Positions 1-53,461 of a DNA stretch of 64,000 bases are shown here, in pieces. A program made the position numbers and the translations under genes. The stretch is taken from NCBI GenBank assembly GCA_044892525.1, contig CM097885.1:33110001-33174000 (forward strand), given 5' to 3'. Below the pieces are notes generated by a model. That model was not told the DNA's origin. It worked only from the letters and a program-made list of their open reading frames with translations, and did no database searches. Source of the stretch: Schmidtea polychroa (Eukaryota). How positions within the stretch are numbered: the first letter of the stretch is position 1; each line of letters opens with the position of its first letter.

Positions 1-590
1 TAACCATGCCATTTGACATAGTATTGTTTATCCTTACCGACCTTTTTAGTTTTCAATATTTTTTGAATTCTAAATACTTTTGGGGGAGGAATGACTTGTA
101 ATTCCTGCTCATAAAATTTCCCTTGTACAATATTATTATCATTGTCTTTGATGACATACATTACAGGATTCTGTTTAGTATTTATTTTTGAAATTACAAA
201 GACTTCATCACTCCAATTTGTATCAAAATTTTTAATAAATGGTGATGCACTAATTTTACTAATTCTAACATGGTCACCGACTTTATATTTAGGTTTTGCA
301 ATTTTTACAGATTTCTTAGAAGTCAATGATGTTTTTGATGTAATATCAACCGGTCTCAATCCATTCAGTCCTCGATGTGATGAATGATTATAACTTGTTA
401 TTATTTTCGGTAAAGCATTTACCCATTTTTTATTACCTTGATGCACGAACAATTTCTTTAATCGATCTCTCAATGTTCGATTAAATCTTTCAACATGGGC
501 AGCTTTGTATTGAGAATGTACCGAGTAGTGATTTATTTTCAGTTTATCGAGGATTTGCTTAACTTTGCTATTGTAGAATTCTTTACCTAA

Positions 591-664
<74 letters not shown>

Positions 665-1665: not shown

Positions 1666-2292
1666 TCAACTTTGTTTATAAACCATGGCACCTTTTGGGT
1701 TGAAAATATCTGTTTTTACTCGTAAATCATCGGGACATTGTTGTGTGAAATCAAGAAATATATATCCATGAGGTATTTTTGTAGCATCTTGAAATGCACT
1801 GATAAGAAAATTACGATTGTTTGGGTATGCTTGACGTGCAAGAAAATCAATCACTGTTGCATCTCTAGGATTCTTGAAAATATCTAAATATTGTACATTT
1901 AAATTACGTGTTCGATGTGCCCCACCTTGATGAAATAGATTTTGTGTTATGAAAATAACTGTTACACCGACATATCTGCTGATCTTTGTAAATAAATTAT
2001 TAAAATCTTTTTCTTTATTAGCTTCTTGATACAAATCATCGATAATAATGACATCACCTTTCTTTAATCGGCTGGACCAGTTTTTATCGAATCCCTTTAC
2101 TATTTTCATGTTTTTTAATTTACAGAAACTTGATTGAGTTAATCCATGTTCTTCATCAGCACCCCTATGCCAATAAATCCTGTTGAATTTTGATTTGAAT
2201 AAATCTGATTTTAGTAATTTACAAACCAATAATGTTTTTCCACTACCACTCGGACCAACGATTTGGTATACTGCATCATTTCTTAATTCCAT
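1666..2292 (-). CDS. Polinton DNA-packaging ATPase (A32/FtsK-like)
   Basis: Walker A GPSGSGKT, Walker B IIIDD, VIFITQNLFHQG..RTRNLN, FKNPRD, PHGYIFLD. Confidence 0.93.
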   Translation of the reverse strand: MELRNDAVYQIVGPSGSGKTLLVCKLLKSDLFKSKFNRIYWHRGADEEHGLTQSSFCKLKNMKIVKGFDKNWSSRLKKGDVIIIDDLYQEANKEKDFNNLFTKISRYVGVTVIFITQNLFHQGGAHRTRNLNVQYLDIFKNPRDATVIDFLARQAYPNNRNFLISAFQDATKIPHGYIFLDFTQQCPDDLRVKTDIFNPKGAMVYKQS

Positions 2293-2391: not shown

Positions 2392-2829
2392 ATGTTAGCA
2401 AATATAAATTATCGAGGAAATTTTGATGTATCGAATATGAGGTTCCCACCAGGGAAACCCCAGCAAATTATCGATAGAAGCGGGAAATATCCGATAATAT
2501 TTTTCAAGACTGGTAAATGCAGAATCATGGGATGTAAGAAACCCTTGGATATTAATAAATTACAATATCGAATAAATAATATTATAATCCAATCAATTAC
2601 CGTTACTATGGATATGGGACATAGTATCAATCTATATAACATGTCGAAAAAATGTGATTGTATGTTTGAACCGGAATTGTTTCCGGCACTAAGACTATTA
2701 AAATATAACCCTATATGTGTCAACGTGTTTGCTAGTGGAAAGGTTGTCATGCTGGAGTTGAGAAATTTGGAGTATAGAGAATTTGTTGACAATGTTCGAA
2801 ATGAGATAATTTCATTGGTCGATTTCTAA
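2392..2829 (+). CDS. TATA-binding-protein-like protein carried by the Polinton
   Basis: Two TBP half-repeats: IIFFKTGKCRIMGCK, and QSITVTMDM..INLY..FEPELFPAL..VNVFASGKVVML (compare TBP YEPELFPGL..IFVSGKVVLTG). 145 aa with no N-terminal extension. Confidence 0.85.
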   Translation: MLANINYRGNFDVSNMRFPPGKPQQIIDRSGKYPIIFFKTGKCRIMGCKKPLDINKLQYRINNIIIQSITVTMDMGHSINLYNMSKKCDCMFEPELFPALRLLKYNPICVNVFASGKVVMLELRNLEYREFVDNVRNEIISLVDF

Positions 2830-3175
2830 TTGGTTAATTTCTAATTGGTTATTGATTGATTTAAACAAACGGTTTTTTGCTTAGGATTCATTTATTCAAC
2901 AACATGTACAAAATTCCGAGCGCCACTCAAATTAGAATAATGGAGGTATTCCATCAATTTTTATGGGATGTTAAGATCAACAGAACAATGAAGCAAATGG
3001 AGCCGGAGTACCAATGCATCATCGGATGCTCATGCTGTGCCGATCGATATCGGCGATATGTCGAATGGGAGTTAGTGAAAACTCTGAGAAGGTTTCACAA
3101 CTCCCGGATTGTAGATTTAGGTTATCAATAAATGTATTTTTTATTGTGTTTTTTCTTTTTTTTTTATATTTGAAA

Positions 3176-3278
3176 TAATAATAGTAATAATAGTAATAAT
3201 AATAATAATAATAATATAAATAGAAATAATAATAATAGAAATAATAATAGAAATAATAATAGAAATAGTAATAATAAA

Positions 3279-3362
<84 letters not shown>

Positions 3363-3400
3363 GAAATAGAAATAATAAAACATTAATAAAAATAATATGT
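3176..3400. repeat. (AAT)n / AATAGA microsatellite
   Basis: Direct reading. Similar (AAT)n tracts lie at ~7570-7725, 23835-23920, 25110-25205, 29055-29132, 44245-44350, 47580-47716 and 51530-51692. Confidence 0.95.
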
Positions 3401-3429
3401 CACATTAATAGCACATAAATACAGCATTA

Positions 3430-3507
3430 ATGCAAATGACATGCAAATTTAAACAAAGACATGCTATAATCTGATTGGTTGATAGGCATGAGTCAAAGGT
3501 ATAAAAA
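3430..3507 (+). promoter_or_regulatory. Pol II promoter module: tandem octamer (ATGCAAAT x2), CCAAT box, AP-1 site (TGAGTCA), TATA
   Basis: ATGCAAATGACATGCAAAT at 3430-3448, then CTGATTGGTT, ATGAGTCA and TATAAAA upstream of the ATG at 3541. A second octamer pair lies at 4011-4029. Confidence 0.55.
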
Positions 3508-3540
3508 CCCTGTAACATTTCAATTTCATCATTATTCACT

Positions 3541-3950
3541 ATGACCAAGAAAATTTCAATCACCGAAAAACCTAAAGAAATGGTACAACCAGTTCAAATG
3601 TTCCACAACTACAAAATGTATTTTTTGAAAGAAGAAATCAATATGAAATTGGTTGCACCAGTCAAGCTAATTCCAACTAAATTTAAATTCTTATCCGGCA
3701 CGCTTTCAATGATTGATGTCAAAACTATTGATGATGTTTTTAAACGGATAGATTCGAATCTATCGTGAAATCAACATGCATGGTTCAACAATAGATATGC
3801 AAGATTTTATGATGCTTTTGATGAAATCAGTTTCAAAGAAAATGAAAATTGGTATATAACAATTGCAATCCAGGATATAAAGTTGATAATAATGATGTAT
3901 ATTCTCCTATTTGGAAAATTATGTCTGCTAGACTTTCACAAATATTTTAA
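3541..3950 (+). pseudogene. Polinton accessory gene (disrupted copy of the 136-aa ORF at 32357-32767)
   Basis: Near-identical to the reverse complement of 32357-32767, but with an in-frame TGA at 3766-3768 and a later frameshift. Confidence 0.75.
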
Positions 3951-4076
3951 TGTTATATTTAATAAATGTATTAGTCATATTTGTTTTTCTCTTTATTAAT
4001 TGCAACATAAATGCAAATGACATGCAAATTTAACAAAGAAAATCTATAAACAAACTTATAATATAGTTTTAAAGTG

Positions 4077-4483
4077 ATGAAAATGACTGCAGAAAAAGGT
4101 TAACATGATTAATTAATTACCGAATTATTTATTATTTAGAATTTGTAATCAACTTTTTGTTGGAAAAGTTAGCAGAAATATCTGGTGTGAAAATTGAGGA
4201 CATATTATCTATTACAAATGCCTTAAATATCGGCTGGTTAGTTGAGAGTCAAGATACAGGATTTGATGATGAGGAAGAAACTCAAGAAATTGATGAGGAA
4301 GAAACTCAAGAAATTGTTGAGGAAATCTATGAACCTATAGATGAAACTATAGATGAACCTGTAGAGGAACCTATAGAGGAACCTAAAGATGAACCTAAAG
4401 ATAATATTACGAATGATTGTATTGATCATGTCGTTGAAAATATAATGAAATGTGGAGATGACGACTGTGAATGTGTTAATTAA
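4077..4483 (+). CDS. Acidic repeat-containing Polinton protein; putative intron 4099-4139
   Basis: ATG AAA ATG ACT GCA GAA AAA G^GT...TTTAG^AA splices in frame with ORF 4157-4483 (DEEETQEI and EEPI repeats, ending CGDDDCECVN). The same splice signals are present in copy 2. Confidence 0.65.
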
Positions 4484-4560
4484 TAAATTTTAGTTAATTA
4501 GTGTTTGTAAATTTATTTAAAATTTTATTTAAAAATCAAACAAAATAACTATATTAATTT

Positions 4561-5075
4561 TTATTTAAAAAACCGGCATAAAACATACAAAATAGCAACA
4601 CGTGTTGCAAGTTTTAAATAGTTTTTAAATTTGATTTTCTGTTGATCTATTTCCTTCGCATTTCTGGCGAGTTGATTCAGCACGCCCCATCCGCCATTGG
4701 CTTCAATCCATGGCTGAAACTTTGACTTGATTATCTAGAAAAAAAATATTAATAAAATATAGATTATAAAAGTATTACTTCTTGAGACCACTGATAATAA
4801 TGTTCAGAGTCCCATAAACTTCTTTCGATTATGATCTTCATATAAGCGAACCCTACTAGTATTCGGGTCCACTTCATCTCTTCGTCGCATAGACAGTTAA
4901 AAATCCTATGAAAATAGAATTTTTTCGTTTCGAGGCATTCGGAATTGAGCACATCCTCATAATCAATATGATTTCCTTCTATAATCTTTTCGGTCCGATC
5001 GACCAGGAAACTGAGGCTTTCCATAATATTCTTATTGATAAGTTCGCTTAAAAGATTTTCCATAAAATGAGACAT
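4561..5075 (-). CDS. Bcl-2 family apoptosis regulator, two exons (5075-4779, 4734-4561)
   Basis: BH1-like EMKWTRILVGFAY in exon 1, then a 44-nt GT-AG intron at 4735-4778. Exon 2 gives BH2 FQPWIEANGGW and a hydrophobic C-terminal tail VAILYVLCRFFK*. Confidence 0.85.
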
Positions 5076-5180
5076 TTCTACAATAATTTAAAATATGATG
5101 TTTGATTTATACTAATACCGTATGAATTTGATTGGTTGATAGACTATAAATGTAAAAGAAAGGTTTTGATTTGATACACC

Positions 5181-5681
5181 ATGAAAACTATATTCATATT
5201 GCTAATTATTATAACGAGTGTGTGCTCACACAATACAACAATAACAGTGGAGTCTTTTAATAAATCAATATGTGTTTGTCCGAATACAGCCAAGTTGATG
5301 GATATTTTATATATTCTTGACAAACCAAAATGGTCAAAGCATCCAGGAAAAAGAATATCTCAAAGATTGGAGAATTTAGAAAACAGTTATGAACTATCAT
5401 TTGCATATATACAAAATATAAAAATTAAATTGATTGATCATATTGAAGTTTTCAATAACTCTATTGTTGAAAATAAAAAGAATATGAAAATTATTAATAA
5501 GAAGCATGATTATTTGTTAAAAAAGATCGAATTATTATTAAGAGAAATTCAAACAATCAAAGGATCAATAGAATATCTGAAAATCAATTCAACGTTACCA
5601 ATTTCAAACAATATTGCTGCGAATAGTAGTACATCAATATTTAGTTTACCTTTGTTAATTTTACATTATTTTATTGTTTAA
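5181..5681 (+). CDS. Secreted or membrane-anchored coiled-coil glycoprotein (Polinton cargo)
   Basis: N-terminal signal-like MKTIFILLIIITSVCS, several N-x-S/T sites, heptad-like middle, Ser/Ala-rich spacer and hydrophobic C-terminus. CCAAT and TATA motifs upstream at ~5130-5150. Confidence 0.65.
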   Translation: MKTIFILLIIITSVCSHNTTITVESFNKSICVCPNTAKLMDILYILDKPKWSKHPGKRISQRLENLENSYELSFAYIQNIKIKLIDHIEVFNNSIVENKKNMKIINKKHDYLLKKIELLLREIQTIKGSIEYLKINSTLPISNNIAANSSTSIFSLPLLILHYFIV

Positions 5682-5711
5682 ATAAATGTATGTTTTGTTG
5701 ATTTGTTTAAT

Positions 5712-6093
5712 AATACCCTTGTGAGTTGTTGAGTGTGAGCAGTACCCTTGTGAGCATTACCCTTGGGAATTTGACTTTGGGAATGACCTTGGATGAGTCA
5801 TATGACCTTGAGAATGACCTTGAATAAGTCATGGTCTTTGTTTAAATGACCCTGAAAAAAATTGACCTTGATGAGTCATATGTTTTTGTTCTACAGTTGA
5901 CCTTGAAAATTTAATGAGTCATAGGATGAGTCATGGTCTTTGTTTCAATGACCTTGATGAGTCATATGTCTTTGTTCTACAGTTGACCTTGAAAAAAATG
6001 TACTTTTAGGCTTAGAAAAATTTTTTACGCCCGGGGGGGAGGGGGGTATTGTGCCAGCGGAGTCCTGTTCTTGTGGTGCCCAATCCATCTACT
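5712..6093. repeat. Right terminal repeat of Polinton A with TGACCTTG and ATGAGTCAT arrays
   Basis: Multiple TGACCTTG and GATGAGTCAT motifs, a poly-G tract and terminal CTACT. Same architecture as 24080-24367 and 47755-48705. Confidence 0.8.
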
Positions 6094-7150
6094 AATCAAA
6101 AACACCATCATTCAAACTAGCGCAATCATTCAAAATCATACAACCCTTACTCATATCATGAATTACCTTTAATTTATTGCTCCGATCACCTCCTTGTGTG
6201 ATGGAGCATTCCCGTTTGGGTACTCAAATCAGCCTCTGGATCCTCGTCACCGAATGCGGTCACTTTTTTATGAAATTTTTGTCGTCTGTCTGGAAATAAC
6301 TCATGGCACTGATATTTGAAATGTCCTGTTCTTTTACAATGGGGACATTGAATATTGGAGCATTCAGATCTTCTATGACCTTTTTCGTGGCACGCCCAAC
6401 ATCCCAAAAATTTGATTTGTTCGGATATGATTTTGAGAAAGAAATTCCCTGGTATTATAAGGCTTACTTCTATTTATAGGTTTCAATCCATTTGAAATAG
6501 TACATCGATGTTCTCTTGTAAATTCGCCTTTGAATCTTGGATTAGCTTCTAGTTCTCTAATTGATCTGTTATCATAACCATTATCTTCTTAACAACATCA
6601 GCATAGCGTTGGGTTTTATTCATTGAAGCTACATCAGCATGAAATACATTAATTTCTTTTGAAACTTGATCGTGTTTCTATAATCTGTCTTTCATTTCAT
6701 CAAATGATTTTAAATCTTGCATTTTGAGATTTTTTCAACTTCTTTATTTTCAAGCGAATTGAATAGCAAAAATTTCTTTAGTTCTTCTTCCTCAAGTTTA
6801 TGCTTCAAAATATTTTTTGCAATTTTCTCAATTTTTGAGCAGAATTCTTAGGCAACATCATTTCCTTCATGATAATTTAACGCTTCGTTAAAATGATAGA
6901 TAAGACTTCTGTTCTTAGCAAAAGCGTTTCATAATCTTTCTGTATAATGCAGAGTTTCATTTGTCAACTCATATTTCTTAGTTGAATTGATTGATAGAAA
7001 AGCTTTACTTCTGTCTTCATCGACAATATTTGTCATCTCGAAGAATCGTTTCGTTTCTAAGATGAAATCTTCCACATCTGAATCCATATAATATGTTTCT
7101 GGTGGTTTGATAAAATTTTCAATCGTGGTAGCCATATTAGCCACAGAGCT
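6094..7150 (-). pseudogene. Degenerate Gypsy gag with two CCHC zinc knuckles
   Basis: CWACHEKGHRRSEC and CPHCKRTGHFKYQC. The N-terminus IKPPETY..DVEDFILETKRFFE is related to the gag at 42905-44002. Stops and frameshifts present; truncated at the Polinton end. Confidence 0.8.
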
Positions 7151-14319: not shown

Positions 14320-16360
14320 CTTCTAGAATTTTCTTTTTACTTCGATTTCTTTTCGATTTTAATTCTTTCAATCTCTATAGTAAATTATTACTATAGAGAA
14401 TTACTATATAGATCATTTTGTTGGGTTGCGAGGGCCGTGACTCGAATTAAGTTAAATAATGTAATTTGCAATTACATATAAAAAATTATACATAAACAAT
14501 TAACGTTACATTACAGCCTCCATATAGCCCAGATTTGTCACCCATTTAGAATTTATTGTATATTCTCGAACAAAATGTTCACGCTCAACAATCTTAGAAC
14601 GTTAGTTTTAAATAATGGCTACAAGGAAATAGAGTAGATGAAGATAATGGCAGAATCATGATCAAAATTTTAAAAGCTAACATTGAACAACATCAATAAA
14701 TATTAGAAATTTAAAACTAAAAAAACAAGGAAATAAGGGAATATCCTTGTGCAAAATATTTGAAAAATAGTATAACATCAAATAATGAGAGAACTCAACA
14801 GGAACTGATCGTCATTAAACACATAAATCCATTATAAATTCGAATTAGTAGGATATAAGATAAGGCTACCTGATTGAAGTCGGACATAAGCCTTCTATCA
14901 GCAGTTTGCGAACCCATCCTAATGCTCACTTTTTAAAACTATTTACTTATACGAAACATTACCAATGTTGATCGCTCAACGGGTGTCGGATGGCAAAGAA
15001 AACCAATGTATCTTGAGTTGCGCCGAAAACGACACGACCACGTGTATCAACTGTAAGATCCTGATATTTACTACATTAAAACCGACATTATTAAAACTAA
15101 CTTTATTAAAACAGTTAAATAAAATTTATGTATATGCTTTGGCCACCTATGACATATATGCGTTATTAAAACAAAAATTTATACAAATACAAATTAATCG
15201 AGAAATTATTATTATTAGTACTATTTTACAATATATCAGTAAAACTTTCTGATATTATCAGTTAAATTATATAATTTTTTCGCTTCTTATTAAAAGTATG
15301 TTGGATAACAAATTCATAAATTTATGTTATTTTAATTGGATACTATTTCACTGTCTTGTGCTTGAAAGACTTGAAATTAAAATATTTTAATAAAATAAAA
15401 AAAACTATTTACGCAAGAATTGAATTGCTGTTTTGTTTAAATATTTCATTTATTACAAATTAATTCTGCAAATTATTTTAATTAAAAAAAAGTTTAGAGA
15501 AAATAATTTTTGACGCTCATGAGACAATTAGTTTATTGTGGGAAATTCAAGGTTTTATAATTTCTAAAAATATATATCTGAATAATAAATAAAACTAATA
15601 AAATCAGCTTAGTAGGTAGTTAGGAGCGTCCTGCAACAATTACCCCCTCCCCCCACCCTAAAAATTGTTGCAACTTACATTTTCTGCTTTTTTTAATTAC
15701 ATAATTGTTGCAGGACGCTCCAATGTTTTTTTTCTGGGATTTTCAATTAAAAAAATTTTTTTCAATACAAATTTTTCTCTGACTATAGTGAGGGGTTTCG
15801 ATGGAACCTGAGAATTTCAATAGAAAAAGGGCTTTCACTAAAAAGCCAAGGATTATTCAGACTATAGTGAAGGGGTCTCCTTGGTCCTGAGGATTTCAAT
15901 ACAAAAAAGGGTCCTCGCTAAAAAAGCCAAGAATCTTTCTGACTATAGTGAGGGGGTCTTCTTGGTCCTGTGATTTTAGTAGTGAGGAAACATGCCACAT
16001 GGACCCACTCCCCTAGAGAGACTCCCACATCGCCTAACCCCCTCCATTAAATCCTCATACAACACCTCTAAATCTCTAAGATTTTATAATATTCACCCAT
16101 TAAATTTAAAACCACCCACTTTTAAACCCAAGCCACTTTAAACCACCCACCCCCAAAACCTTACATATTTATTTGATCTAAGCACTAAGTCCACAGTGAT
16201 CTCTCAAATATGTTTAAAAGCGCCCATGTGGCCTGTTTCCTCACTACTGTGGCTTAAATATAAAAAATTTAAAGTTTTAAAGGTTTTAAAAATTTAAAAA
16301 TGTATAAAAAAATATTCAAAAGGTGAAAAACCTAAACCAGTAAAAAAATATTTCTAAAAA

Positions 16361-18517
16361 ATGAACAATTTGAACAATCAAATAAATTTGGACAGCTTGG
16401 GCTTTTATTACAATTTGTGTAATAAAAACTTTAAATGAAAAACGGCATTAACTTCTCACAAAAAAATCAAAAGACCATTTAATTAAAGGAAATCTTTTAA
16501 ATGATACCAACTCTAAACTTTGTAACAAGTGTAAAGAGCGATATTTACTTTCAGGATTTGATAAACATTATTCAAACTGTATTGGACTTAAAAAAATTAA
16601 AGAAGTATTTTCTTGTTTAATATGTAATAAAAAATTCACAAAAAATATTTTACAAAAGTATAATATTCCACCCGAAGAATACAAAACTTGTTTGGCAAAA
16701 GGAATATATCCCTATGATTATATTGACTCATTTAATAGATATCAAGAAATAGAATTACCATCACATGAAAATTTCTATTCAATATTAAATCTATCAAATA
16801 CAACTGAAGAAGAAGATGCAAGAGCTAGAAAAATGTGGTAACTATTTAATTGTCAAACATGAGGAGATTATACTGATATATACTTAAGTTTAGATGTATA
16901 TATTTTAGCAGACTGTTTCGAAAAGTTTGTAAAAGCTTTTCCATTAAAAGCTTATAATTATATAACCCTACCATCTTTAGCTTGGGATATATTATTATAT
17001 AGCATGAATGATAGTATAGAATTACTATCAGATGTTAACATGTTCAACACGATAAAAACTAATATTTGTGGAGGTATTAGTTCAGTAATGGGTGAACGAT
17101 ACATAAAAGCACTCAATTACAAATATCTTTACAAAACTTTATTCAAAGATACAGATGAACCATATGTTGAAATTAAAACACAAGAATTTAATATGGTAAT
17201 AGAATGTTTAAACAACCCAGCCCACATTTTATACATTGACGCGACCGCCCTATATGCAGGAATAATAACTCAACATCTTCCAATTGGAAATTTTGAATGG
17301 ATGGAAATACCTAAAACTAAACAGGGTAAAGAAGAATTAATGAATAAAATATTAAATACCCCCAAAGACTCAAACATAGGATATTTTATAGAATGTGATT
17401 TAAAATATCCAGAGCGCATAAAAGCTAACACAAAATATTTTCCATTTGCCCCAATAAAAAGAAAAATGGAAAAAGAAGAACTACTAGCTTGGCAACTTGA
17501 AAAAGAAAGGGGGTTTAGTAAGAAGCTAATATGTGACCAAACAGATAGGACATATTACCTTATACATTATAGAATGTTTAAATTCTATGTTAAACATGGA
17601 ATGAAAGTTAAAGATGTTTACAACATTATAAAATTTAAACAAGCCCCATTTATGAAGGGGTATATTGATCACAATATTAAAATGAGAAATGTATGCAAAA
17701 GAGCAAAAGATGAATTCGGGGACACAATGTATAAACTTTTAAATAATTCAGTCTTTGGTAAAACAATGGAAAACATTGATAAATATACAAAGATTGAATT
17801 ATTAACCAATAACCCCAAAGACTTCACAAGATATAACAGAATGTTGTCAAAACCAACATTTAAAAATGCAGAAATATTTTCAACTAGTTTAGCCGCAACA
17901 GAAATAGGAAATTACATAAAAACTTATAATAAACCAATGATTATATAGGATATAGTATTTTGGAGTTATCAAAACTTCAAATGTATGAAACCTATTATGA
18001 TACATTACAACCACACTTTCAAGACAGAATATCTTTACACTTTATGGACACAGATTCAATGCTTTTAAAGGTTTATTCTTCAGATATATACAAGGAAATA
18101 TCTGAAAATGAAACCTTGAATAAATTAATAAATAATAGTGGAGAATTATTTAGTTTCAAAGATGAGAAACCAAATAATTCAATATTTGAGGCAATATTTA
18201 TTACGGCTAAACAATATTCCCTTTTATTAGAGAGAGGAGAAGAAAATAGAAATAAGGGAATACAAAAATGGGTAGCTAAAAAAATTACACATCAAAACTT
18301 TACAGATTGTTTAAAACCACAATCTGAGATACAAATAGAAATAGTTCATCAGATTAAATCTGATAAACATAACATCTTTTTAGAAGAAGCACACAAAGTT
18401 TCACTTGACAATTATGACGATAAAAGGGTTATTTTGTCAGATGGAATTGGAAATGATATGATTCCATATATAAAAAACTTGTTTAGGATTATTATTTTCA
18501 TCAAGTCTAATATCTAG
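16361..18517 (+). pseudogene. Protein-primed family B DNA polymerase (pPolB), disrupted, exonuclease region deleted
   Basis: KGIYPYDY, LDVYILADCFEKF, GGISSV, YIDATALY, KLLNNSVFGKTMEN, LELSKLQMY, FMDTDS, YDDKR. Decayed Cys/His finger motifs at the N-terminus. In-frame stops at ~16850-16862 and 17946. Confidence 0.92.
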
Positions 18518-18897
18518 ACGCGTTCCGGGTCCAGTATAGTTGTTTTAAATAAGTGTCTTTCACCTGGATATTTTTCAGTAGTAAAAGGTTTTAATAATGA
18601 TGATGTTAATTTTGAAGATTGTAAATCACCACCCATGTGTGGAACCAGGTCGCCTCCTTGTTTCTCAAAAGCAAATCTGCTTGAAGGATTGAGCGCCAAC
18701 AAGAGAATATTACCTGAAGATGCTTTTAAATTATTTAATGAAATTTTATTATTAGAATCTGTTTCACCATTCGCCTTAGACTCATAAAGACGTGATCAAA
18801 TTATGTGTTTTTTAGTTTTAATATGACTTGCTTTATGATGTCTTGTAACTTCACAATGACAAGTTTTACATGTCCAATACTGTTTAGGTAGAGACAT
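18514..18897 (-). pseudogene. Small C2H2 zinc-finger ORF joined to a GG-motif core-protein fragment
   Basis: MSLPKQYWTCKTCHCEVTRHHKASHIKTKKH, then a stop, then ..KQGGDLVPHMGGDL.. (adenain-type motifs). Probably a deletion junction. Confidence 0.5.
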
Positions 18898-18924
18898 TTT
18901 AAAAAATTAATTTTTGTTTTCTTA

Positions 18925-20215
18925 TTAATCACCTCTAACATTCTCAATTATTGAAATCTTTCCACCATATAACTTCATTTCTATTTTCTTTTCTTCAAGA
19001 ATTTTTGTATATACTTTTGCTTTAAAATTAGAATCCTTTTTTATATGAAGAGTAACATCAACATTATTTATAGCCAATTTATCATCTTGATCTGAAACAT
19101 TTATGCAGAATATTGAATACAAATTTTTAAAATCTTTTAAAGATGTTTGTGATTCTGTTCCAAAATCTCGACATTTTTGAATATAATTTAGATAAGGGAA
19201 TATATTTTCATTGTTTTCTATATCAAACTCCATTCTATTTATTGGATAATAACTATTATTCAATTGAATTTGAATTGATTTTAAACAATCATAATCCAAT
19301 CTTTTGAATAAACAAGTCATTATTTTTTTGAAATGATGCATCTGTTTCTTTGAACCCAATTAAAATATATCTTGGAGGATATGTTAAATTTGCTACTTTT
19401 ATAGAGTATGTTGAGTCCTCTCTCATATCAAATTCACTACAGATTCTATTTAAATAATTTACATTTATTGACTTGTTGGAATTTAATCTTTCTAGTAATT
19501 TGATTTCAGCATGTGGATTTAAAATCCATTCAGGTATATGTAATTCGATTGTTGTTAATTTTAATTTAGCTTTTGTATCTTTATCTCCAAAGAACAACAC
19601 TTTATCATCTATTGCCCTATTACAAACTAATTCTATAAAAACATTATGAAGTACACGATTATAACTTTGAAGGAATCCAAATAAATGTTTCAATTCGAAA
19701 TAACCTTCAAATTTTTTAGACTTATAAAGTTCAAATCTTTTATAATAAGCATAATTTACATCTAAACCATCTTTATCTAAATCACCTTTGTTAATATCTG
19801 GGATCCAACCTGTTAATTCACCATATTCACTTTTATAATCATGAGTAGCTAAAATAAAACTTAACATTGTAGAATATACACCCGGATACAATATACTTTC
19901 AATTTCCGATGGTCCTAATTTTAATCTCATGTTGGAGAATAAATTTGGAAAGAAATTATTTTCTAGGGTAATATCTTTGTTTGCTTCAATCTCTAATTCA
20001 ATTTTATAATATAATCTTGCATTACAAATATCTATAGGGTTTGCTGTTTGAAAAGATTGAAAAACTATATCACCTGAACTATTTAAATTTGCAATAGAAC
20101 CTGCGGTTGGGGAAATTTTAAGTATGTCATTTTTCCTGATTTCATGAGTAAACTCTTTATTATAATCAAGATTTAGTTTATTTTTTTCTGGAATTTCAAG
20201 ATTTATGTTGTTCAT
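18925..20215 (-). pseudogene. Polinton major capsid protein (double jelly-roll), one frameshift near 19290
   Basis: LNSSGDIVF, LENNFFPNLFS, ELKHLFGFLQSYNRVL, IELHIP, PRYILIGF, then LNNSYYP..YSIFCINVSDQ in the second frame. Confidence 0.85.
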
Positions 20216-22849
20216 TTTTAAGATATAAATTTAGGTTTTTCACCTTTTTAATATTTTTTTATACATTTTAAAATTTTTAAAACCTTTAAAACCTTTAAAA
20301 CTTTTTTTATATTTTTTTATTTTTTATATTTAAGCCACAGTAGTGAGGAAACAGGCCACATGGGCGCTTTTAAACATATTTGAGAGATCACTGTGGACTT
20401 AGTGCTTAGATCAAATAAATATTTAAGGTTTTGGGGGTGGATGGTTTAAAGTGGCTTGGGTTTAAAAGTGGGTATTATAAAATCTTAGAGATTTAGAGGT
20501 GTTATATGAGGATTTAATGGTAGGGGTTTGGCGGTGTGGGAGTCTCCCTAGGGGGGGTGGGTCCATGTGGCCTGTTTCCTCACTACTGATTTTCAATACA
20601 AATTTCAATTACTGTTAAAAAAGCCAAGGATTATTCAGACTATAATGAGGGGTTCTCCTTGATCCTGGGATTTTTAATACAAAAAAATGGTTTACACTAA
20701 AAAAGTATGGTAAATTAAGGTCTCAGGATATTTTCAATACAAATTTCAGTCTACACCACCAAAAGCAAGGATTTTTATAATTAAAATAAGGTGGGTCTCG
20801 ATGGTCCTGGGATTTTCAATACAAAATCAGATTATCACTAAAAAAGCAAGGATTTTCCAAGTAAATTATTGGGGTCTCTTTGGTCTTGAGATATTCAATA
20901 CAAAAAGGGGGTCTTAACTAAAAAAGCGTGGTAATTTTTAAATTAAAGTAAATTGTGGGTCTACAAATTGAATTATAGTAAATTATGGGCTCAGATTTTT
21001 CAATTAAAGTATATTAAGGTTCTAAAAAATTAAATTAAAGTAAATTATGGTCTAAATTAGATAATTAAGGTTCAAATTTTAAAATTAAAGTAATCAATAG
21101 TAATAGGATATGTCACCACTGGCATATGACACCTCTGGCAAACACCCCTTAAAAAGGAAAAATTTTTCTAAGTCTAAAAGTACATTTTTTCCAAGGTAAT
21201 TTAAACCAAGACATTAGAACAAAGACCATGACTCATTCAAGGGCATTGGATGACTCACCAAGGTAATCGAAACAAAGACATGACCCACTCAAAGTCATTG
21301 GATGACTCATCAAGGACATTTCAAGGTCATTCCCAAGGTCACATGGCTCATCCAAGGTCATTTCAATGTCATAAGACTCATCAAAGGTCATTCTCAAGGT
21401 CATTCCAGGGTCACGTGACTCATTGCAATGATTAATCAAGGTCATATTATTATTTTTCAAAAATATTATTATTTTATTATTATTTTTCAAAAATATTATT
21501 ATTTTATTATTATTTTTCAAAAATATTATCAAGTATGCTAGCGGTACCCTACTATTTGGCATGCCAAAAGTTATTGTTCCCATCAATTTTATTTCATCGA
21601 TAGATAGATAATTTTGAAGCTTAGTGCAAGACCCTTTGAATGAGATATATAGATCATCATCACCATTATTACTGGTAAAGTTATTATTATTATAGTAGAT
21701 GGTAGTGTCCCACCCACACCATGTTCCATCCACACCACTAAAGAGAAATTTTTTTAAAACTCGGAATTTTATAACGAACATAAAATTATGTAGTCTATAT
21801 ATAGAAAATATGCATGGAAAATGAGCTCTAAAGTCTCAAACTTCAACATCAAATGCCATAATTTAACATCATTCATATATTATCAAACATAGAAAATCTT
21901 ATATTATAGAAATAAAATCATATTCTTCAACACATGGTGGGACAATGAACAAAAGCTTTAATAAAATACTTGGAAAAATATTTTAAAAAATATGAAAGTA
22001 CTTTAAAATAAAGGTCACACCACTTGACATAGAAATTTGAAAATTTTTAGGACACAACACTTTGAAAATTTTTATATAAAAATACTTGGAAAAAATCAAC
22101 AAATTACTAGAAATTAAAAAATCACATGGAATATTTACAAAATATTTCCAAATCACAAAATCCCCAAAATAAATTTCCCAACTCAAAATTTTCCCAAAAT
22201 TTAAAAAGTCCCAAAAATAAATTTTCCAAATTTTCCCAACTCAAAAAGTCCCAAAATTTCCCAAAGAAAATTTTTTAAAAAGGTACAAAAAATTAAAATC
22301 TAATTTTGTTCGCTGCAAAACGGAATTTCACGTGTACACATATGAACCTATTGTTAATAAGGTCTTAACTCGAAATCCTAAAAATAATAACCAACTCTCA
22401 ACTTAAGATCGCTTAGTTCTAATTTCTGTGTAATTTTGAATTCATGAAGCAGAAAATTTAAGATTAAATCCAGTCATCAAATAACAGAAAATTTTGAACC
22501 ACCATTAGTTTGTTTTCATTGCTTCAAATGTTTTGATTTATATATAATTTTCATATTTAAAAGATCAAAAATTCAAAAATATTGATGTTAAAAATAAATT
22601 TTTCTCTATAATCATCAAATAATTTTAAAATCAGGAAAATTACAAAAACATATCTGTTTTAACTTATCAACATTTCAAATTTGGATAATTTTGTATGATT
22701 GAATTGAATTGATAGGATGACATCTAAAGGTATAATTTATTTTGCACCAATGATCAAAATGGCCGGAGTATCAAACAGTATATTGCTCAATAAGATCCTA
22801 AATGATTGTAACATTAACAATCGAAAAAAATCATTTACATTATTTCTAT

Positions 22850-23231: not shown

Positions 23232-23795
23232 TATGAAGTTCAGGAAAAACCACAGCAAATTGTCGATAGACGCGGGAAATACCCGATAACATTTTTCAAG
23301 ACAGGTAAATGCATTGTTTCCGGTACTAAGACTATTAAAATATAACCCTATATGTGTCAACGTGTTTGGTAGTGGAAAGGTTGTGATGCTGGGTTGAGAA
23401 ATTTTGAGTATAGAGAATTTGTTGACAATGTTCGAAATGAGATATTTTCATTGGACGATTTTTAATTGGTTAATTTCTAATTGGTTAATGTTTGTTTTAA
23501 ACAAACTGTTTTTTATTTAGATGTCATTTTTTCAAATGTACAAAATTCCTAGTGCTGCTCGTTTGATAATAACTCTATTGTTGAATAATAAAAAGAATAT
23601 GAAAATTATTGATAAGAAGCATAATCATTTGTTAAGAAAGATTGAATTATTATTAAGCGAAATTCAAACAATCAAAGGATCAATAGAATATCTGAAAAAC
23701 AATTCAACGTTACAAATTTCAAAAATATGGCTGCAAGTAGGAGTACATCAATATTTAGATTACCTTTGTTAATTTTAAATTATTTAATTGTTTAA
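23232..23795 (+). pseudogene. Deleted remnants of the family A TBP-like and secreted-protein genes
   Basis: 23232-23560 matches parts of 2437-2925 with an internal deletion; 23570-23800 matches ~5455-5700. Confidence 0.85.
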
Positions 23796-23831
23796 ATAAA
23801 TGTATGTTTTGTTAATTTTGTTGATATATAT

Positions 23832-29292: not shown

Positions 29293-30105
29293 TTAAATTG
29301 TATTTTGAAACCACAAGTGATTAAGGAACTCATTCAAGTTTATTCTGTCCTCAGGGTTAAAAGCTAAACATTTGTCAATCAGGTTTCTGGCATTTTCTGA
29401 ACATTTGTAATATGGGATAGAAGTTATATTCTCATAATCATTCTCGGTATTAAAAAGTAATCTTTTTTCAATAGAAATATAAAGTAAACATCCAATTTCG
29501 AAAACCATATTTTTCTTGATATCGTATGTGTTTTCTTTCACTGCCTCATAGCTTGAATATCCGAGAGTACCAATGCATCCACGACATTTAGGATTTTCTT
29601 TTAATTTCTCATAAACGGAACTTTCGAAGTCTATAAATTTGATATTGTAAGTTCTACTATTTATCATAATATTTTTATGTTTTATATCTAAATGATAAAC
29701 ACCTTTACTGATTAATTTCTCTAAACCTTTGATTACATTTGTTATAACCTTTCTCATCATAATTTCACTTATTACATTTGTATTAATAAACTCTAGCAAG
29801 TCCATCCAATCTCCATTGAGGTTTTCCATAATAATTGCAAATTCTGTCTCAGACTGAATACAATCTAAAACTTTCGGACTGAAATTTTCTTTTTCAATAA
29901 AATCTAGAAATAATAATTCTTTTGGTATTGGAAACAGATAATTTTTATTTCGAATAAACAAATAATCTTCAGATTTTGAGAAACATTTAATGACAACAGT
30001 TTTATGATCTAGATTTTTGTTCGATTTGTTTTCAGCTATATAAATTATGCTCTTTTCGGTTTCTTGGACTATTGAAATTAATTTATAATTTTTATTATTA
30101 ATCAT
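29293..30105 (-). CDS. Intronless atypical Ser/Thr kinase, Pim-like
   Basis: VVIK, IPKEL, MDLLEFI, HLDIKHKNIM, FIDFE, GTLGY, IGCLLY, LIDKCLAFNPEDR. No Gly-rich loop; DFE replaces DFG and SYE replaces APE. Confidence 0.85.
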   Translation of the reverse strand: MINNKNYKLISIVQETEKSIIYIAENKSNKNLDHKTVVIKCFSKSEDYLFIRNKNYLFPIPKELLFLDFIEKENFSPKVLDCIQSETEFAIIMENLNGDWMDLLEFINTNVISEIMMRKVITNVIKGLEKLISKGVYHLDIKHKNIMINSRTYNIKFIDFESSVYEKLKENPKCRGCIGTLGYSSYEAVKENTYDIKKNMVFEIGCLLYISIEKRLLFNTENDYENITSIPYYKCSENARNLIDKCLAFNPEDRINLNEFLNHLWFQNTI

Positions 30106-31632
30106 TTTTTGTTTAAGTTAATGAATTAGATTTTAATTTTTAAATTGAAATAATATTTTAAAATAATTTATTTAATGTACATTTGATTGGATAAAATATG
30201 AACAATTTATTATTTATTGTTTTTAGTTTTTGTGAATTTTGCAATATATTGCTTATTGATAAGACGTAATTATAAACTTGGGTCCTCAAAATATGCATTG
30301 TTATATTATGAAAAAAATTAAAATATTTAATACTTTTTCTGATAAATCCGAAGCTAGATACACTCAAAGAACAGGAATATGTAAATTTATGATAAAGGAG
30401 TCTGAGAAAGTGTTGGATAATACTTTTTATGAAAATTATCAGGAACACGAATTTAAGTTTTAGTTCTATATATTTGAACATAAAACTAAGAAACATATTC
30501 TGGAGTAAAACATAACGAAAAAATAAACAAGTGGAATAGAATTTTTGACACCAACAATCCAGAAGATCAAATATTCTATTTATTTCCGGTTAATTTGAAA
30601 TGTTTTTTCTAAACTTCAATCGACCTTCAAATTCGTCAAACTGGTCATCTTAAGTTAGATGAGGTCAAGGAACATAAATATTTCTTGATTTATTTTAAGA
30701 AGTCTTAAATTATGTATATACAAAATATAAAATAAAATATCTTTTTTAAAGTAAAAATATCAATTTTTATATTAAAATATTTATATTAAAAATTGGGCAC
30801 GAAAAGTTTGAAGAAAACACCTTTTAAAACTAATTTGACACTGAAATGTTTCAAACACAAAACATTGATGGAGAACTGAGTGTTTTTTTAAGTTAATCGA
30901 AAATAAAAGTGTAATTTTATTCTGATACATAAATTATTAATACTATATACTAATTTAAAATTGGGTATTTTTTGAATATTAATTAATATAATAATTTACA
31001 ATAACTTTTCAGACACACTGATAGAAACTAGAAAAATAAATAAAATCCCTAAGAGTAAGTACTCTTACACATGTTTCGTTTTTAAATTTTATATTCTGAT
31101 CTTTTTTTCAATTGAGGGAGAATATTGAGCATCCCTAGCTTTTATAATTTCTTCCAAAATATTTTATTGTAGTGATCCATTAATGAATAATTCTACTACT
31201 TATTTTCACCCATTTGAATTATAAATTTATCATAGAATTATTTCCTCATTTAATGAAGATTCTTATCACCTGCGAATTATATTGTTAATTTTATCTCTGT
31301 TTAACGAATATTTTACACTTTATCGATTTTTCACTGCTTACCATTTTAGAATAAGATTTTTTTTCAAAGTTTGGGATAATTTGACTGATTCAATAATAAA
31401 TTTGATGGAGTTAATTGGTTTAATTATATATACTCCGAGTTTATCCGACAGGATGTTTTGCCCCCTATGGGTATTGGTCATAAGGGTATTGGTCGTAAGG
31501 GTACTAGTCGTAAAGGTATTGGTGTGTTTTAATGATTTTATTTAAGCAAATTTTGTTGTTTAAGGCATGTCTTTATTTGTCTTATATGTCTTTAATTTTA
31601 TAATCTATATTTTAATAATATTTATTTTCTAG

Positions 31633-31812
31633 ATAATCAAGTCCAAGTTTACACCATGGATAAAAGCCAATGGCGGATGGGGTAGATTGAACCAACTCGC
31701 CCGAAATGCCAAAGAAATTGATGAATACAAAAGAAAGTTTAAAAACTACATTAAACTTGCAAAAGGTGTTGCTATTTTGTATATTATTAGTAAATTTTTT
31801 AATAAAAATTAA
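31633..31812 (+). pseudogene. Bcl-2-like gene exon 2 (exon 1 lost)
   Basis: TTTTCTAG^IIKSKFTPWIKANGGWGRLNQLARNAKEIDEYKRKFKNYIKLAKGVAILYII; same acceptor position as copy 1. Confidence 0.8.
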
Positions 31813-31871
31813 AGTAGTTATTTGTTTTATTTTTTAAATAAATTTACAAACAATAAATAACTAAAATTTAT

Positions 31872-32231
31872 TAATTAACACATTCGCAGTCATCATCTCC
31901 ACATTTCATTATATTTTCAACGACATGATTAATACAATCATTTGTAATATTATCTTTAGGTTCATCTTATAGGTCCCTCTATAGGTTCCTCTATAGGTTC
32001 ATAGATTTCCTCATCAATTTCTTGAGTTTCTTCCTCATCATCAAATCCTGAATCTTGACTCTCAACTATCCAGCCGATATTTAAGGCATTTGTAATAGAT
32101 AATATGTCCTCAATTTTCACACCAGATATTTCTGCTAATTTTTCCAACAAAAAGTTGATTACAAATTCTAAATAATAAATAATTCGGTAATTAATTAATC
32201 ATGTTAACCTTTTTCTGCAGTCATTTTTATC
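31872..32231 (-). pseudogene. Acidic Polinton protein, copy 2 (fewer repeats, frameshift)
   Basis: Homologous to 4077-4483. Confidence 0.7.
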
Positions 32232-32356
32232 ACTTTAAAACTATATTATAAGTTTGTTTATAGACTTTTTTTGTTAAATTTGCATGTCATTTGCATTTAT
32301 GTTGCAATTAATAAAGAGAAAAACAAATATGACTAATACATTTATTAAATATAACA

Positions 32357-32767
32357 TTAAAATATTTGTGAAAGTCTAGCAGACATAAGTTTCCAAATAG
32401 GAGAATATACATCATTATTATCAACTTTATATCCCTGGATTGCAATTGTTATATACCAATTTTCATTTTCCTTGAAACTGATTTCATCAAACGCATCATA
32501 AAATCTTGCATATCTGTTGTTGAACCATGCATGTTCTTTACACGATAGATTTGAATCTAACCGTTTAAAAACATCATCAATAGTTTTGACATCAATCATT
32601 GAAAGCGTGCCGGATAAGAATTTAAATTTAGTTGGAATTAGCTTGACTGGTGCAACCAATTTCATATTAATATCTTCTTTCAAAAAATGCATTTTGTAGT
32701 TGTGGAACATTTGAACCGGTTGTACCATTTCTTTAGGTTTTTCGGTGCATGAAATTTTCTTGGTCAT
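32357..32767 (-). CDS. Polinton accessory protein of unknown function (intact copy; possibly OB-fold ssDNA-binding)
   Basis: Open 136-aa ORF with TATA/AP-1/CCAAT motifs upstream, conserved in copy 1. The beta-strand-like C-terminus YITIAIQGYK..YSPIWKL is only suggestive. Confidence 0.6.
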   Translation of the reverse strand: MTKKISCTEKPKEMVQPVQMFHNYKMHFLKEDINMKLVAPVKLIPTKFKFLSGTLSMIDVKTIDDVFKRLDSNLSCKEHAWFNNRYARFYDAFDEISFKENENWYITIAIQGYKVDNNDVYSPIWKLMSARLSQIF

Positions 32768-32954
32768 TTTGAATAATGATTAAATTGAAATGTTACAGTG
32801 TTTTTATACTTTTGACTCATGCCTATCAACCAATCAGATTATAGCATGTCTTTGTTTAAATTGGCATGTCATTTGCATTAATGTTGCAGTTATGTTCATA
32901 TTATTTCTATTATTATTGTGACATATTATTATTAATGTTTTATTATTATTATGT

Positions 32955-51922: not shown

Positions 51923-52330
51923 ATGAAAAACTTTCAAGTTAATAACTTCAAAGTCAGCGTGAACATTAATATCCAGACAAACCTGTAAATACATTCAAGA
52001 AAATATTTAGGAAGCAAATATTTAAAAGATTTATAAACAACACTACCAGGGAGTCAACCTTTTTCGTTAAATTGGCAAACTTGTCATAAGCGGATCACAT
52101 CAGCTATCACATCAGTATCAGAATAAGCAAATCCAAAAAAGTATCATAAGTAAAAATTTATTGCATTCCTATACAGATCATTCATGACTCTCAAAAACCA
52201 AAGAAATATCATCAACATACTTTTTGTACACAATTGATTTAGTTAAATTGTACAATGGAAAATATTTTTACAAACTAGACATAAAAATATAGACTATTGT
52301 TGAAAGCAATGGGGAACAAATAGCAACACG
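51923..52330 (+). pseudogene. Decayed second TBP-like gene (insertion site of the tandem array; continues after 59483)
   Basis: MKNFQVNNFKVSVNINIQTNL..., VNLFR*IGKLVISGS and ISSTYFLYTIDLVKLY resemble TBP repeat motifs. Frameshifts and stops present. Confidence 0.45.
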
Positions 52331-52369
52331 AAGCAAATATTTAAAAGATTTTATTGAAGATTTATTGAA

Positions 52370-52870
52370 TTGGCGAAACATGAAGGAAGAATAATGGAGA
52401 TATTGCACCTAAGCAGAATGAACAGTGACAGGGGCTTGGCCGAGTATGGCGATGGTGGGAGGAGAATCCATCATGATGTATCAAGAATGATGCTGGATGC
52501 GGTGCAGAGGTTCTTTCCAGTGAGGCTCAACGTCTTGGAGGACCTAGAGCGGTTTGAAGAGCTGCTGGGAAACCTCATCCTGAATTTCAAGGAACAGAAG
52601 AGGGAAGGCGAGTTGAACAACGGAATGTTGTATCACCAACTGCTGAAGAAGCTGCCAGAGACCATGCTGATTCAGTGGTCACGCCATTGTGATTTGGGGA
52701 GAGAAGGAAAGGTACAAACGCTAGCCGAATGGATCAAAACGGAAGCCGATAGGCATCGAAAAGCCTTGAATATATTGTTTGGGGAGAGAACTCCAGGGAG
52801 TAGGAAGGATGTGGGGACATTGAAAAAGTTCACAAACATCATGGAGAGAAAACCAATTGCAAGAAATCAA
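52370..52870 (+). pseudogene. BEL/Pao gag fragment (repeated at +1788, +3576, +5364)
   Basis: GC-richer segment; LERFEELLGNLI..GELNNGMLYHQLLKKLPETMLIQWSR..VQTLAEWIKTEA is typical of BEL/Pao gag. Confidence 0.7.
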
Positions 52871-53365: not shown

Positions 53366-53461
53366 AGGAGCTCATGGATTTATTGTTGTGGTTGATGTTA
53401 CCGATCAAGATTCGTTTAACAATGTTAAAAATTGGCTTAATGAAATCGATAGATATGCAAA
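53364..53461 (+). pseudogene. RAB1: Rab1 GTPase fragment (x4)
   Basis: [32 protein letters not shown] versus Rab1 [32 protein letters not shown]. Confidence 0.88.

What the first reader, a model, noticed from the sequence alone, without database searches (positions are those of the whole stretch)
2392..5681. Polinton/adintovirus with a host-manipulation cassette: TBP-like factor, spliced Bcl-2 and a surface glycoprotein
Seen: between the ATPase and the right TIR lies a block of small genes, several with their own CCAAT/TATA motifs and two with tiny GT-AG introns. Parts recur in two other elements (31600-32950, 23232-23800), so the block travels with the element. Known: the core Polinton set is pPolB, integrase, ATPase, protease and two capsids, and accessory cargo varies by lineage. 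Inference: this is an endogenous DNA-virus lineage equipped for transcription control, apoptosis control and surface display, as in larger DNA viruses.
Basis: partly seen in the sequence, partly recalled or inferred. Interest (0 to 1): 0.85.

Follow-up and report, generated by a model that had tools for sequence, protein, structure and literature searches.

The report
Polinton early-gene block with captured Bcl-2
A virus-like jumping element present in hundreds of copies in an animal (likely flatworm) genome carries a conserved block of small genes: its own short TATA-binding protein, a predicted single-stranded-DNA-binding protein, a predicted two-exon Bcl-2-family gene likely taken from the host, and an optional predicted surface protein; together these would help it switch on its genes, copy its DNA and keep its host cell alive.

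Summary
Confirmed, with corrections. The block lies inside an 18.3-kb Polinton with AGTAG terminal repeats and a 6-bp target duplication. TBP, Bcl-2 exon 1 and the 166-aa ORF each have at least 150 near-identical copies. All five genes with enough alleles to test show purifying selection: dN/dS 0.05-0.17 for Bcl-2 exon 1, 0.33-0.46 for the 166-aa ORF. It sits beside the mini-TBP in 21 of 81 outside loci, while Bcl-2 is in 0 of 81. So TBP plus SSB is lineage machinery, not host manipulation. Bcl-2 occurs in four element families here, and its closest cellular relative is one single-copy host gene. The 'glycoprotein' is optional and supported only by sequence features. Splicing and expression are untested. 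Bcl2, IAP and SSDBP are already reported in adintoviruses, and TBP in a related virus (PMC8502044). This scan had already noted the TBP and the Bcl-2 at other copies in this genome. Verdict: a real, new variant of a known kind.

The parts
1666..2292 (-). Packaging ATPase, head-to-head with TBP; TATAAAC box upstream
   Evidence: Pfam Pox_A32 E 1.8e-4; promoter motif
2392..2829 (+). Short TBP-like protein (145 aa); second repeat with EPELFP and VNVFASGK kept, first repeat shortened; this copy has a private substitution at near-invariant column 122
   Evidence: Pfam E 5.6e-14; 106 homologues; alignment; at least 150 copies
2904..3131 (+). Remnant of a two-exon Cys-containing gene of unknown function; about 190-bp internal deletion in this copy removes the intron
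   Evidence: other copies keep a GT-AG intron and a 96-aa downstream frame
3474..3507 (+). Inverted CCAAT box and TATAAAAA in front of the SSB gene
3541..3950 (+). Predicted OB-fold ssDNA-binding protein of the T7 gp2.5 / ASFV CP312R / giant-virus type; broken in this copy (premature stop at 3766-3768, frameshift near 3880); 137 aa in other copies
   Evidence: AF2 model of a natural copy, pLDDT 88.8; top four VIA hits Z 7.0-7.4, rmsd 2.7-4.8, 101-125 aligned, next Z 5.3; BFVD giant-virus hits to E 7.9e-6
4083..4483 (+). Acidic protein with C-terminal Cys cluster, two exons (predicted intron 4099-4139, 41 nt); function unknown; TATAAAC upstream
   Evidence: dN/dS 0.33; homologues in families D and E
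4561..5075 (-). Bcl-2-family gene, two exons (predicted intron 4735-4778, 44 nt); BH1 with W-T-R in place of W-G-R, BH2, C-terminal hydrophobic tail
   Evidence: dN/dS exon 1 0.05-0.17
5076..5180 (.). Divergent promoter region: one CCAAT box (5131-5135) between two outward-facing TATAAAT boxes (Bcl-2 and the 166-aa ORF)
   Evidence: family B has a matching GATTGGTT between its divergent SSB and Bcl-2 genes
5181..5681 (+). Optional 166-aa ORF: predicted signal peptide, CxC, coiled coil, 5 sequons, C-terminal hydrophobic end without a cytoplasmic tail (GPI-signal-like)
   Evidence: Hydropathy and sequons; weak Fib_alpha and NDC80 coiled-coil hits; only 2 homologues, 94-95% identical; dN/dS 0.33-0.46
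5769..6093 (.). Outer part of the right terminal inverted repeat, ending CTACT (an inner TIR segment spans 5629-5762)
   Evidence: Pairs with the left end at G000:C1:33097761
6094..6099 (+). 6-bp target-site duplication AATCAA, also before the left end
31593..32947 (-). Second, partly deleted copy of the block (SSB frame open, acidic gene and Bcl-2 exon 2 in part)
   Evidence: 88.8% over 1419 nt
23247..23826 (+). Heavily deleted copy joining TBP fragments to the end of the 166-aa ORF

Best explanation
This block is the accessory gene end of a high-copy Polinton and likely works as its early-gene module: a short TBP that would help turn on the element's own genes, a predicted ssDNA-binding protein that would serve its protein-primed DNA copying, a likely host-derived Bcl-2 protein predicted to bind the host's pro-death BH3 motifs and so keep the cell alive, and an optional predicted GPI-anchored coiled-coil protein. 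Shown: the genes, their place inside the TIRs, copy number, purifying selection and gene-by-gene allele swapping. Predicted: the SSB fold, the introns, and BH3 binding (modelled only for the intronless family-B relative). Inferred: SSB, Bcl-2 and the 166-aa gene are read first by host factors from CCAAT+TATA promoters, and the element's TBP then reads the TATAAAC box before the ATPase and putative capsid genes. The block has three layers: old TBP+SSB, Bcl-2 and the acidic gene (so far seen only in this genome), and the recent, optional 166-aa gene.
For: TIRs and 6-bp target duplications on the window's element and 5 other copies of 15-17 kb. At least 150 copies each of TBP, Bcl-2 exon 1 and the 166-aa ORF, plus 150 more of a second Bcl-2 allele. 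dN/dS between natural copies: Bcl-2 exon 1 0.05-0.17, exon 2 0.05-0.40, SSB 0.16-0.18 within family A, TBP 0.21-0.26, acidic gene 0.33, 166-aa ORF 0.33-0.46; Fisher p from 0.04 to 2e-18. GT follows the same codon in 109 of 109 Bcl-2 hits, and 96 of 109 have an AG restoring BH2 in frame; lengths 42-54 nt, 57 of 96 not a multiple of three (some places were fetched twice). SSB fold; SSB near TBP in 21 of 81 outside loci. Bcl-2 in families A, B, D and E, with single-copy host gene L142 as nearest cellular relative: 48% to family B, shared N-terminal motif and 5-residue gap. Complex of family-B Bcl-2 with a host Bak-like BH3 stretch: 0.63 against best control 0.02, contacts agree at least 75%, partner pLDDT 58 (mark reached by 51 of 78 solved and 2 of 108 mismatched microbial pairs, 39 of 65 and 2 of 126 eukaryotic; similar complexes are solved, so the pass may be from memory).
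Against: No transcript, splice or protein evidence was obtained. The BH1 glycine is replaced in families A, D and E and in most family-B copies, which may change groove binding. The complex was modelled for family B, not for the window's protein, and peptides are an untested class for that tool. The tree joins elements and host L142 with only 76/71 support and does not reject elements alone (p-AU 0.30) or elements plus the Burro-type domain (p-AU 0.22). The CCAAT+TATA excess is modest (18 of 500 shuffles). The putative capsid genes were not recognised by Pfam, NCBIfam or PDB. The 166-aa ORF has no outside homologue and the weakest constraint. The window's own copy is partly decayed.
Confidence: 0.6

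Rival explanations
1. The Bcl-2-fold protein is not a BH3 trap but a modulator of another host pathway, as some poxviral Bcl-2-fold proteins are (recalled, no call).
For: Non-canonical BH1 (W-T-R, W-S-R, W-S-K); the nearest host gene is itself non-canonical; deeply diverged alleles are swapped between near-identical elements.
Against: BH2 and the membrane tail are kept; the family-B relative docks a Bak-like BH3 in the model (likeness caveat).
Confidence: 0.15
2. The region beside the TIR is only a landing zone for unrelated modules. The selection seen is old, and in today's genome the element moves as a transposon whose cargo is a passenger.
For: Gene order and position differ between families: the block is at the polymerase end in B and E and at the ATPase end in A and D. 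The 166-aa gene is optional, and many copies are deleted.
Against: TBP, SSB and Bcl-2 stay together in families A, B and D despite moving ends. Recently expanded subfamilies keep open frames (stops in 1 of 150 TBP, 7 of 150 Bcl-2 exon 1 and 1 of 150 166-aa matches, though these are the best-scoring copies), and young allele pairs show dN/dS 0.06-0.12 for Bcl-2.
Confidence: 0.15
3. The direction is reversed or indirect: host gene L142 derives from an element Bcl-2, or both came via another mobile element such as the Burro-type retrotransposon.
For: The tree is unresolved at its base; Burro-like long ORFs with a Bcl-2 motif are abundant in this genome (PMC6431247).
Against: L142 has a GT donor directly after the BH2 tryptophan, the same place where several other host Bcl-2 exons end. 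It is single copy, and no element genes lie in the 20 kb around it.
Confidence: 0.1

Closest known systems
Polintons/Mavericks = adintoviruses (Eupolintoviridae), Starrett et al. 2021, PMC8502044 (sections 3.1, 3.2 and 3.4 and the text of Supplementary Fig S2 read)
   Same: TIRs, target duplication, pPolB, rve integrase, adenain protease, packaging ATPase. The paper reports Bcl2 and IAP in adintoviruses, labels SSDBP on some maps, and lists TBP in the legend for related MELD viruses.
   Different: TBP, SSB, Bcl-2 and a predicted GPI coiled-coil protein together in one element, short predicted introns in four genes, and a candidate host donor. No hit for Schmidtea, Dugesia, Girardia or TBP in the readable supplement; Fig S1 slides were unreadable.
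T7 gp2.5-type SSBs (T7 1je5, Enc34 5odk, DUF2815 4klk, ASFV CP312R 8hw5); such SSBs in four nucleocytovirus families and in mriyaviruses per PMC11253617 (passages read)
   Same: Same predicted OB fold; four tied top hits at Z 7.0-7.4; conserved aromatic and basic columns.
   Different: Only 137 aa, 3-11% identity, no long acidic tail; encoded by an animal Polinton beside a mini-TBP; Z below 8, so binding is not shown.
Cellular and archaeal TBP (PF00352)
   Same: Two repeats detected; second-repeat motifs conserved.
   Different: 145 aa, first repeat shortened, intronless, a separate family of at least 106 clusters; where context was fetched it lies in Polinton-like contigs.
Bcl-2 family (PF00452), viral Bcl-2 homologues, and the BCL2-like motif of planarian Burro retrotransposons (PMC6431247, passages read)
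   Same: BH1- and BH2-like motifs and a membrane tail; the profile hits Bcl-xL at E 5.5e-14 (the profile includes host rows).
   Different: Non-canonical BH1; intron at a site not used by the host relative; the Burro-type domain is a long, distant branch.

Membership tests
Polinton/Maverick | Terminal inverted repeats starting AG and 6-bp target duplication | tested here: met
   Window element and copies c27, c31, c33, c35, c37
Polinton/Maverick | Protein-primed family B polymerase | tested here: met
   The 1387-aa ORF matches (27%, E 5e-47) the window protein that Pfam calls DNA_pol_B_2; no direct Pfam hit
Polinton/Maverick | rve integrase, adenain-type protease, packaging ATPase | tested here: met
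   rve E 1.4e-5 and 1e-11, Peptidase_C5 over cut-off; Pox_A32 E 1.8e-4
Polinton/Maverick | Double and single jelly-roll capsid proteins | tested here: inconclusive
   Conserved 407-aa and 357-aa ORFs; only DJR-like E 0.039 in 1 of 10 homologues; no PDB hit; not folded
Adintovirus Alpha/Beta classes | OTU domain on PolB, class-specific virion module (PLA2X, GasderminX) | not tested
   Not examined
Adintovirus as an infectious virus | Virions or free linear genomes | not testable with these tools
   No particle or read-end data
TBP | PF00352 over cut-off, two repeats | tested here: met
   52.2 bits, 2 stretches
TBP | TATA-box and TFIIB binding | not testable with these tools
   Only motifs seen
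Bcl-2 family | PF00452 over cut-off, BH1, BH2, tail anchor | tested here: met
   Family-B protein 32.7 bits against 31.4; family-A copies read through the intron pass; the window's exons alone do not pass
Anti-apoptotic Bcl-2 subgroup | Canonical W-G-R in BH1 | tested here: not met
   W-T-R in family A, W-S-R in D and E, W-S-K or W-G-K in B
Anti-apoptotic Bcl-2 subgroup | Binds BH3 of pro-death proteins | tested here: inconclusive
   Model for the family-B relative passes, 0.63 against 0.02, but similar complexes are solved
T7 gp2.5-type SSB | OB fold closest to gp2.5/Enc34/CP312R | tested here: met
T7 gp2.5-type SSB | ssDNA binding | not testable with these tools
   Needs a binding assay
Surface (GPI-anchored) glycoprotein | Signal peptide, sequons, C-terminal anchor signal, surface location | tested here: inconclusive
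   Hydropathy 2.4 at the N end and 1.7 at the C end, 5 sequons; no dedicated predictor, no homologue, no structure

The most novel reading that the evidence does not exclude
These flatworm-genome Polintons are working nuclear viruses with a large-virus-like programme in 17 kb: CCAAT-driven early genes (SSB, a host-captured Bcl-2 that blocks host Bak, a GPI-anchored surface coiled coil) and a self-encoded TBP that switches on TATAAAC late genes. Ancient Bcl-2 alleles are swapped between otherwise near-identical genomes as in a host-virus arms race, which would make them a tractable model of an active animal Polinton in regenerating stem-cell tissue.
Probability: 0.25. Interest if true: 0.78.

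Novelty: new variant of a known kind. Interest (0 to 1): 0.52.

Why it matters
Whether animal Polintons act as viruses is still open. A lineage that keeps a transcription factor, a replication SSB and an apoptosis regulator under purifying selection, and swaps alleles gene by gene, behaves like a virus population. It is present in hundreds of young copies, likely in a planarian, where Polintons are PIWI-repressed and can be de-repressed by RNAi (PMC8532177, passages read), so expression, splicing and the early/late switch are directly testable. It also gives a traceable case of host-gene capture followed by a change of intron position inside a mobile element.

Tried and rejected
RNA evidence: the look-up of sequencing runs listed no holder on record as RNA, and no reads could be laid, so splicing is untested; this blank is no evidence either way. 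ESM Atlas gave no usable hit for stored homologues of the SSB and the 166-aa ORF. The first SSB fold from 5 sequences failed (pLDDT 38.6); sequence searches for it found nothing in Pfam, PHROGs, NCBIfam or PDB, and Foldseek-PDB had no match at E<=0.001. The 166-aa ORF has no named family and no earlier scan note; host paralogues could not be seen because own-genome searches score only the best 150 candidates. P0111, a weak hit for Bcl-2 exon 1, is an unrelated repeat protein and was rejected. The first tree had one host row out of frame and was redone. The 2024 review of polinton-like viruses (PMC11426020) is not held, and Repbase was not available, so prior annotation of this block there cannot be excluded. 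Literature searches for the combination found no description of it; two searches were background searches.
Full report
Setting. The window is G000:C1:33110001-33174000 of a 781-Mb AT-rich genome. It is likely a planarian: it holds many ORFs of up to about 3,000 aa with a Bcl-2-like motif, as described for Burro retrotransposons (PMC6431247, passages read). This is inference. The block belongs to an 18.3-kb element whose ends begin AGTAG and are flanked by AATCAA on both sides; the right end is window 6093. Five other fetched copies of 15-17 kb also have TIRs and 6-bp duplications. Polymerase, protease, integrase and ATPase are recognised. The two putative capsid ORFs are conserved but were not confirmed by any library.

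Observation. The TBP-like ORF is real (Pfam E 5.6e-14; 106 homologues of 116 candidates). The Bcl-2-like gene has two predicted exons. Each alone hits only Bcl-2-type structures, weakly; copies read through the intron and an intronless relative pass the Pfam cut-off. The donor GT follows the same codon in 109 of 109 hits, and 96 of 109 have an acceptor that restores BH2, at lengths of 42-54 nt. All 15 printed variants hold an in-frame stop, and 57 of 96 lengths are not multiples of three (some places were fetched twice). The acidic gene shows the same donor and acceptor in the 14 commonest contexts, 93 of 109 hits. A third intron exists in the 96-aa gene of other copies and is deleted here. 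CCAAT+TATA pairs precede SSB, Bcl-2 and the 166-aa ORF (4 pairs against 1.11 expected; 18 of 500 shuffles). No RNA evidence was obtained.

Copy number and linkage. The best 150 scored matches are 98-100% identical for TBP (4147 candidates), 92-100% for Bcl-2 exon 1 (2429) and 96-100% for the 166-aa ORF (2555); another 150 places carry a Bcl-2 allele only 63% identical to the window's. Of 30 loci around window-type Bcl-2, 30 have the acidic gene, 28 the SSB and 30 all or part of the 166-aa ORF. Of 30 loci around the second allele, 30 have the acidic gene, 29 the SSB and 0 the 166-aa ORF. Of 9 TBP-anchored copies, 8 carry SSB, the acidic gene and Bcl-2; 5 carry most of the 166-aa ORF, 3 a stub and 1 none (two of the nine are one duplicated insertion).

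The missed gene. The ORF at 3541-3950 is broken here but is 137 aa in other copies. With 26 homologues it folds at pLDDT 88.8. Its four best matches among 48,161 chains are DUF2815, ASFV CP312R, Enc34 SSB and T7 gp2.5 (Z 7.0-7.4, rmsd 2.7-4.8, 101-125 aligned), and the next is Z 5.3. Sixteen viral models, mostly uncharacterised giant-virus proteins, match at E<=0.001. Z under 8 does not prove function, but the top hits agree on one SSB type, which is known from nucleocytoviruses (PMC11253617, passages). In 81 outside loci found by the TBP alignment (36 of at least 3 kb, 17 of at least 5 kb), the SSB profile hits 21 and the Bcl-2 profile 0; tblastn found no acidic gene, 96-aa gene or 166-aa ORF either. 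Short contigs limit that negative.

Bcl-2 origin. Four element families carry it: A (window), B (intronless, at the polymerase end), D and E. A, D and E have a GT donor after the same W-S-x-E/Q codon (9 of 9 D/E loci; an acceptor was matched automatically in 2 of 9). The nearest cellular gene, L142, is single copy, 48% identical to family B, shares an N-terminal motif and a 5-residue gap with all element proteins, and has its donor after BH2 instead. The tree groups elements with L142 at only 76/71 and rejects neither alternative tested. Capture from the L142 lineage through an intronless intermediate, with a later intron gain in the A/D/E ancestor, is the simplest reading but is inferred. A model of family-B Bcl-2 with a host Bak-like BH3 stretch scored 0.63 against a best control of 0.02 (contacts agree at least 75%, partner pLDDT 58; mark reached by 51 of 78 solved and 2 of 108 mismatched microbial pairs). 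Similar complexes are solved, so this shows likeness only, and not for the window's protein. BH1 lacks the usual glycine in family A.

Selection. Between natural copies dN/dS is 0.05-0.17 (Bcl-2 exon 1), 0.05-0.40 (exon 2), 0.16-0.18 (SSB within family A), 0.21-0.26 (TBP, near saturation), 0.33 (acidic gene) and 0.33-0.46 (166-aa ORF), against 0.04-0.09 for ATPase. Fisher p for the 166-aa ORF is 0.0004-0.04. Hits with stops were left out of these pairs (6 of 68, 19 of 146, 11 of 108, 7 of 109, 5 of 104 and 6 of 64 for TBP, SSB, acidic gene, exon 1, exon 2 and the 166-aa ORF). The 96-aa gene had too few alleles; element-by-element pairs give pN well below pS. Elements nearly identical in core genes carry saturated Bcl-2, 96-aa-gene and polymerase alleles, so genes are exchanged one by one.

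The 166-aa ORF. It has a hydrophobic N end, a CxC, a coiled-coil middle, five sequons and a hydrophobic C end with no tail, which reads like a GPI-anchored protein (inference). Its only database homologues are two 94-95% identical records. It is optional and the least constrained gene.

Mechanism. Likely order: host factors read the CCAAT+TATA promoters of SSB, Bcl-2 and the 166-aa gene; SSB coats displaced strands during protein-primed replication; Bcl-2 holds off apoptosis; the element's TBP reads the TATAAAC box seen before the ATPase, orf177, orf122, the putative major capsid and the acidic gene, and kept in family B for the ATPase, orf122 and putative major capsid (lead from earlier scan notes). 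Only the anatomy, linkage and selection are shown.

Known versus new. Starrett et al. (PMC8502044; sections 3.1, 3.2 and 3.4 and the text of Fig S2) report Bcl2, IAP and SSDBP in adintoviruses and TBP in a related MELD virus. Introns in polinton-like viruses are known from dinoflagellates (PMC12166617, passages). Planarian Polintons are PIWI-repressed (PMC8532177, PMC10558129, passages). Two other papers had no mention of TBP, Bcl or SSB (bioRxiv 10.64898/2026.10.13.758929 and PMC10748475, term search only). My searches found no description of this combination, but Repbase, the Fig S1 slides and the 2024 review were not available. The scan had already reported the TBP and Bcl-2 at other copies. 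Added here: the SSB, the three-layer structure, the candidate host donor, the intron history and the allele swapping. Verdict: real, new variant of a known kind, interest 0.52.

Noticed in passing
window 586-663 (-), inside the integrase gene: The (AAT)n tract is a predicted GT-AG intron: 78 nt here, 42-171 nt in 9 other family-A integrase genes (one of 70 nt, not a multiple of three), absent at the same site in 4 family-B copies.
   Followed up: partly
window element versus copy L033+L034: Gene-by-gene mosaicism: pS 0.02-0.08 for integrase, ATPase, putative major capsid, protease and TBP, but 0.74 for Bcl-2 exon 1, 0.85 for the 96-aa gene, 0.75 for polymerase and 0.54 for the putative minor capsid.
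   Followed up: partly
L161-L164, L181-L184 (family B, 16.5 kb): Polinton family with TBP, SSB and an intronless Bcl-2 at the polymerase end, and no 166-aa or acidic gene.
   Followed up: yes
L194-L196; opposite-strand pairs: In some copies the inverted repeat has grown to over 3 kb and holds Bcl-2, the acidic gene and SSB at both ends.
   Followed up: partly
L263:4008-4316, L315:13315-13893, L325:7142-7999: Outside mini-TBP loci carry other cargo, recognised by eye and untested: a phosphatase-like HC-x5-R motif, a RING-like protein and a KilA-N-like protein. Their SSB genes often seem to have an upstream exon.
   Followed up: no
window 29293-30117 (-) and 59731-60597 (-): Two copies of an intronless protein kinase ORF (Pfam Pkinase E 2e-30 for the first), 94% alike over a 300-nt stretch.
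   Followed up: no
window 16104-20483: A second, unrelated and degraded Polinton with inverted arms, DNA_pol_B_2 and DJR-like Pfam hits.
   Followed up: no
window 52059-59510: Tandem array of 1788-bp units, near-identical, with ORFs resembling retroelement Gag, LIM and Rab fragments (by eye).
   Followed up: no
L131-L137 (G000:C4, 89.9-90.8 Mb): Cluster of at least 7 near-identical host Bcl-2 genes with canonical W-G-R.
   Followed up: no
L142 / L169-L170: The candidate host donor gene lies on the opposite strand next to exons of an M20-peptidase-like gene (by eye); its last exon was not located.
   Followed up: partly
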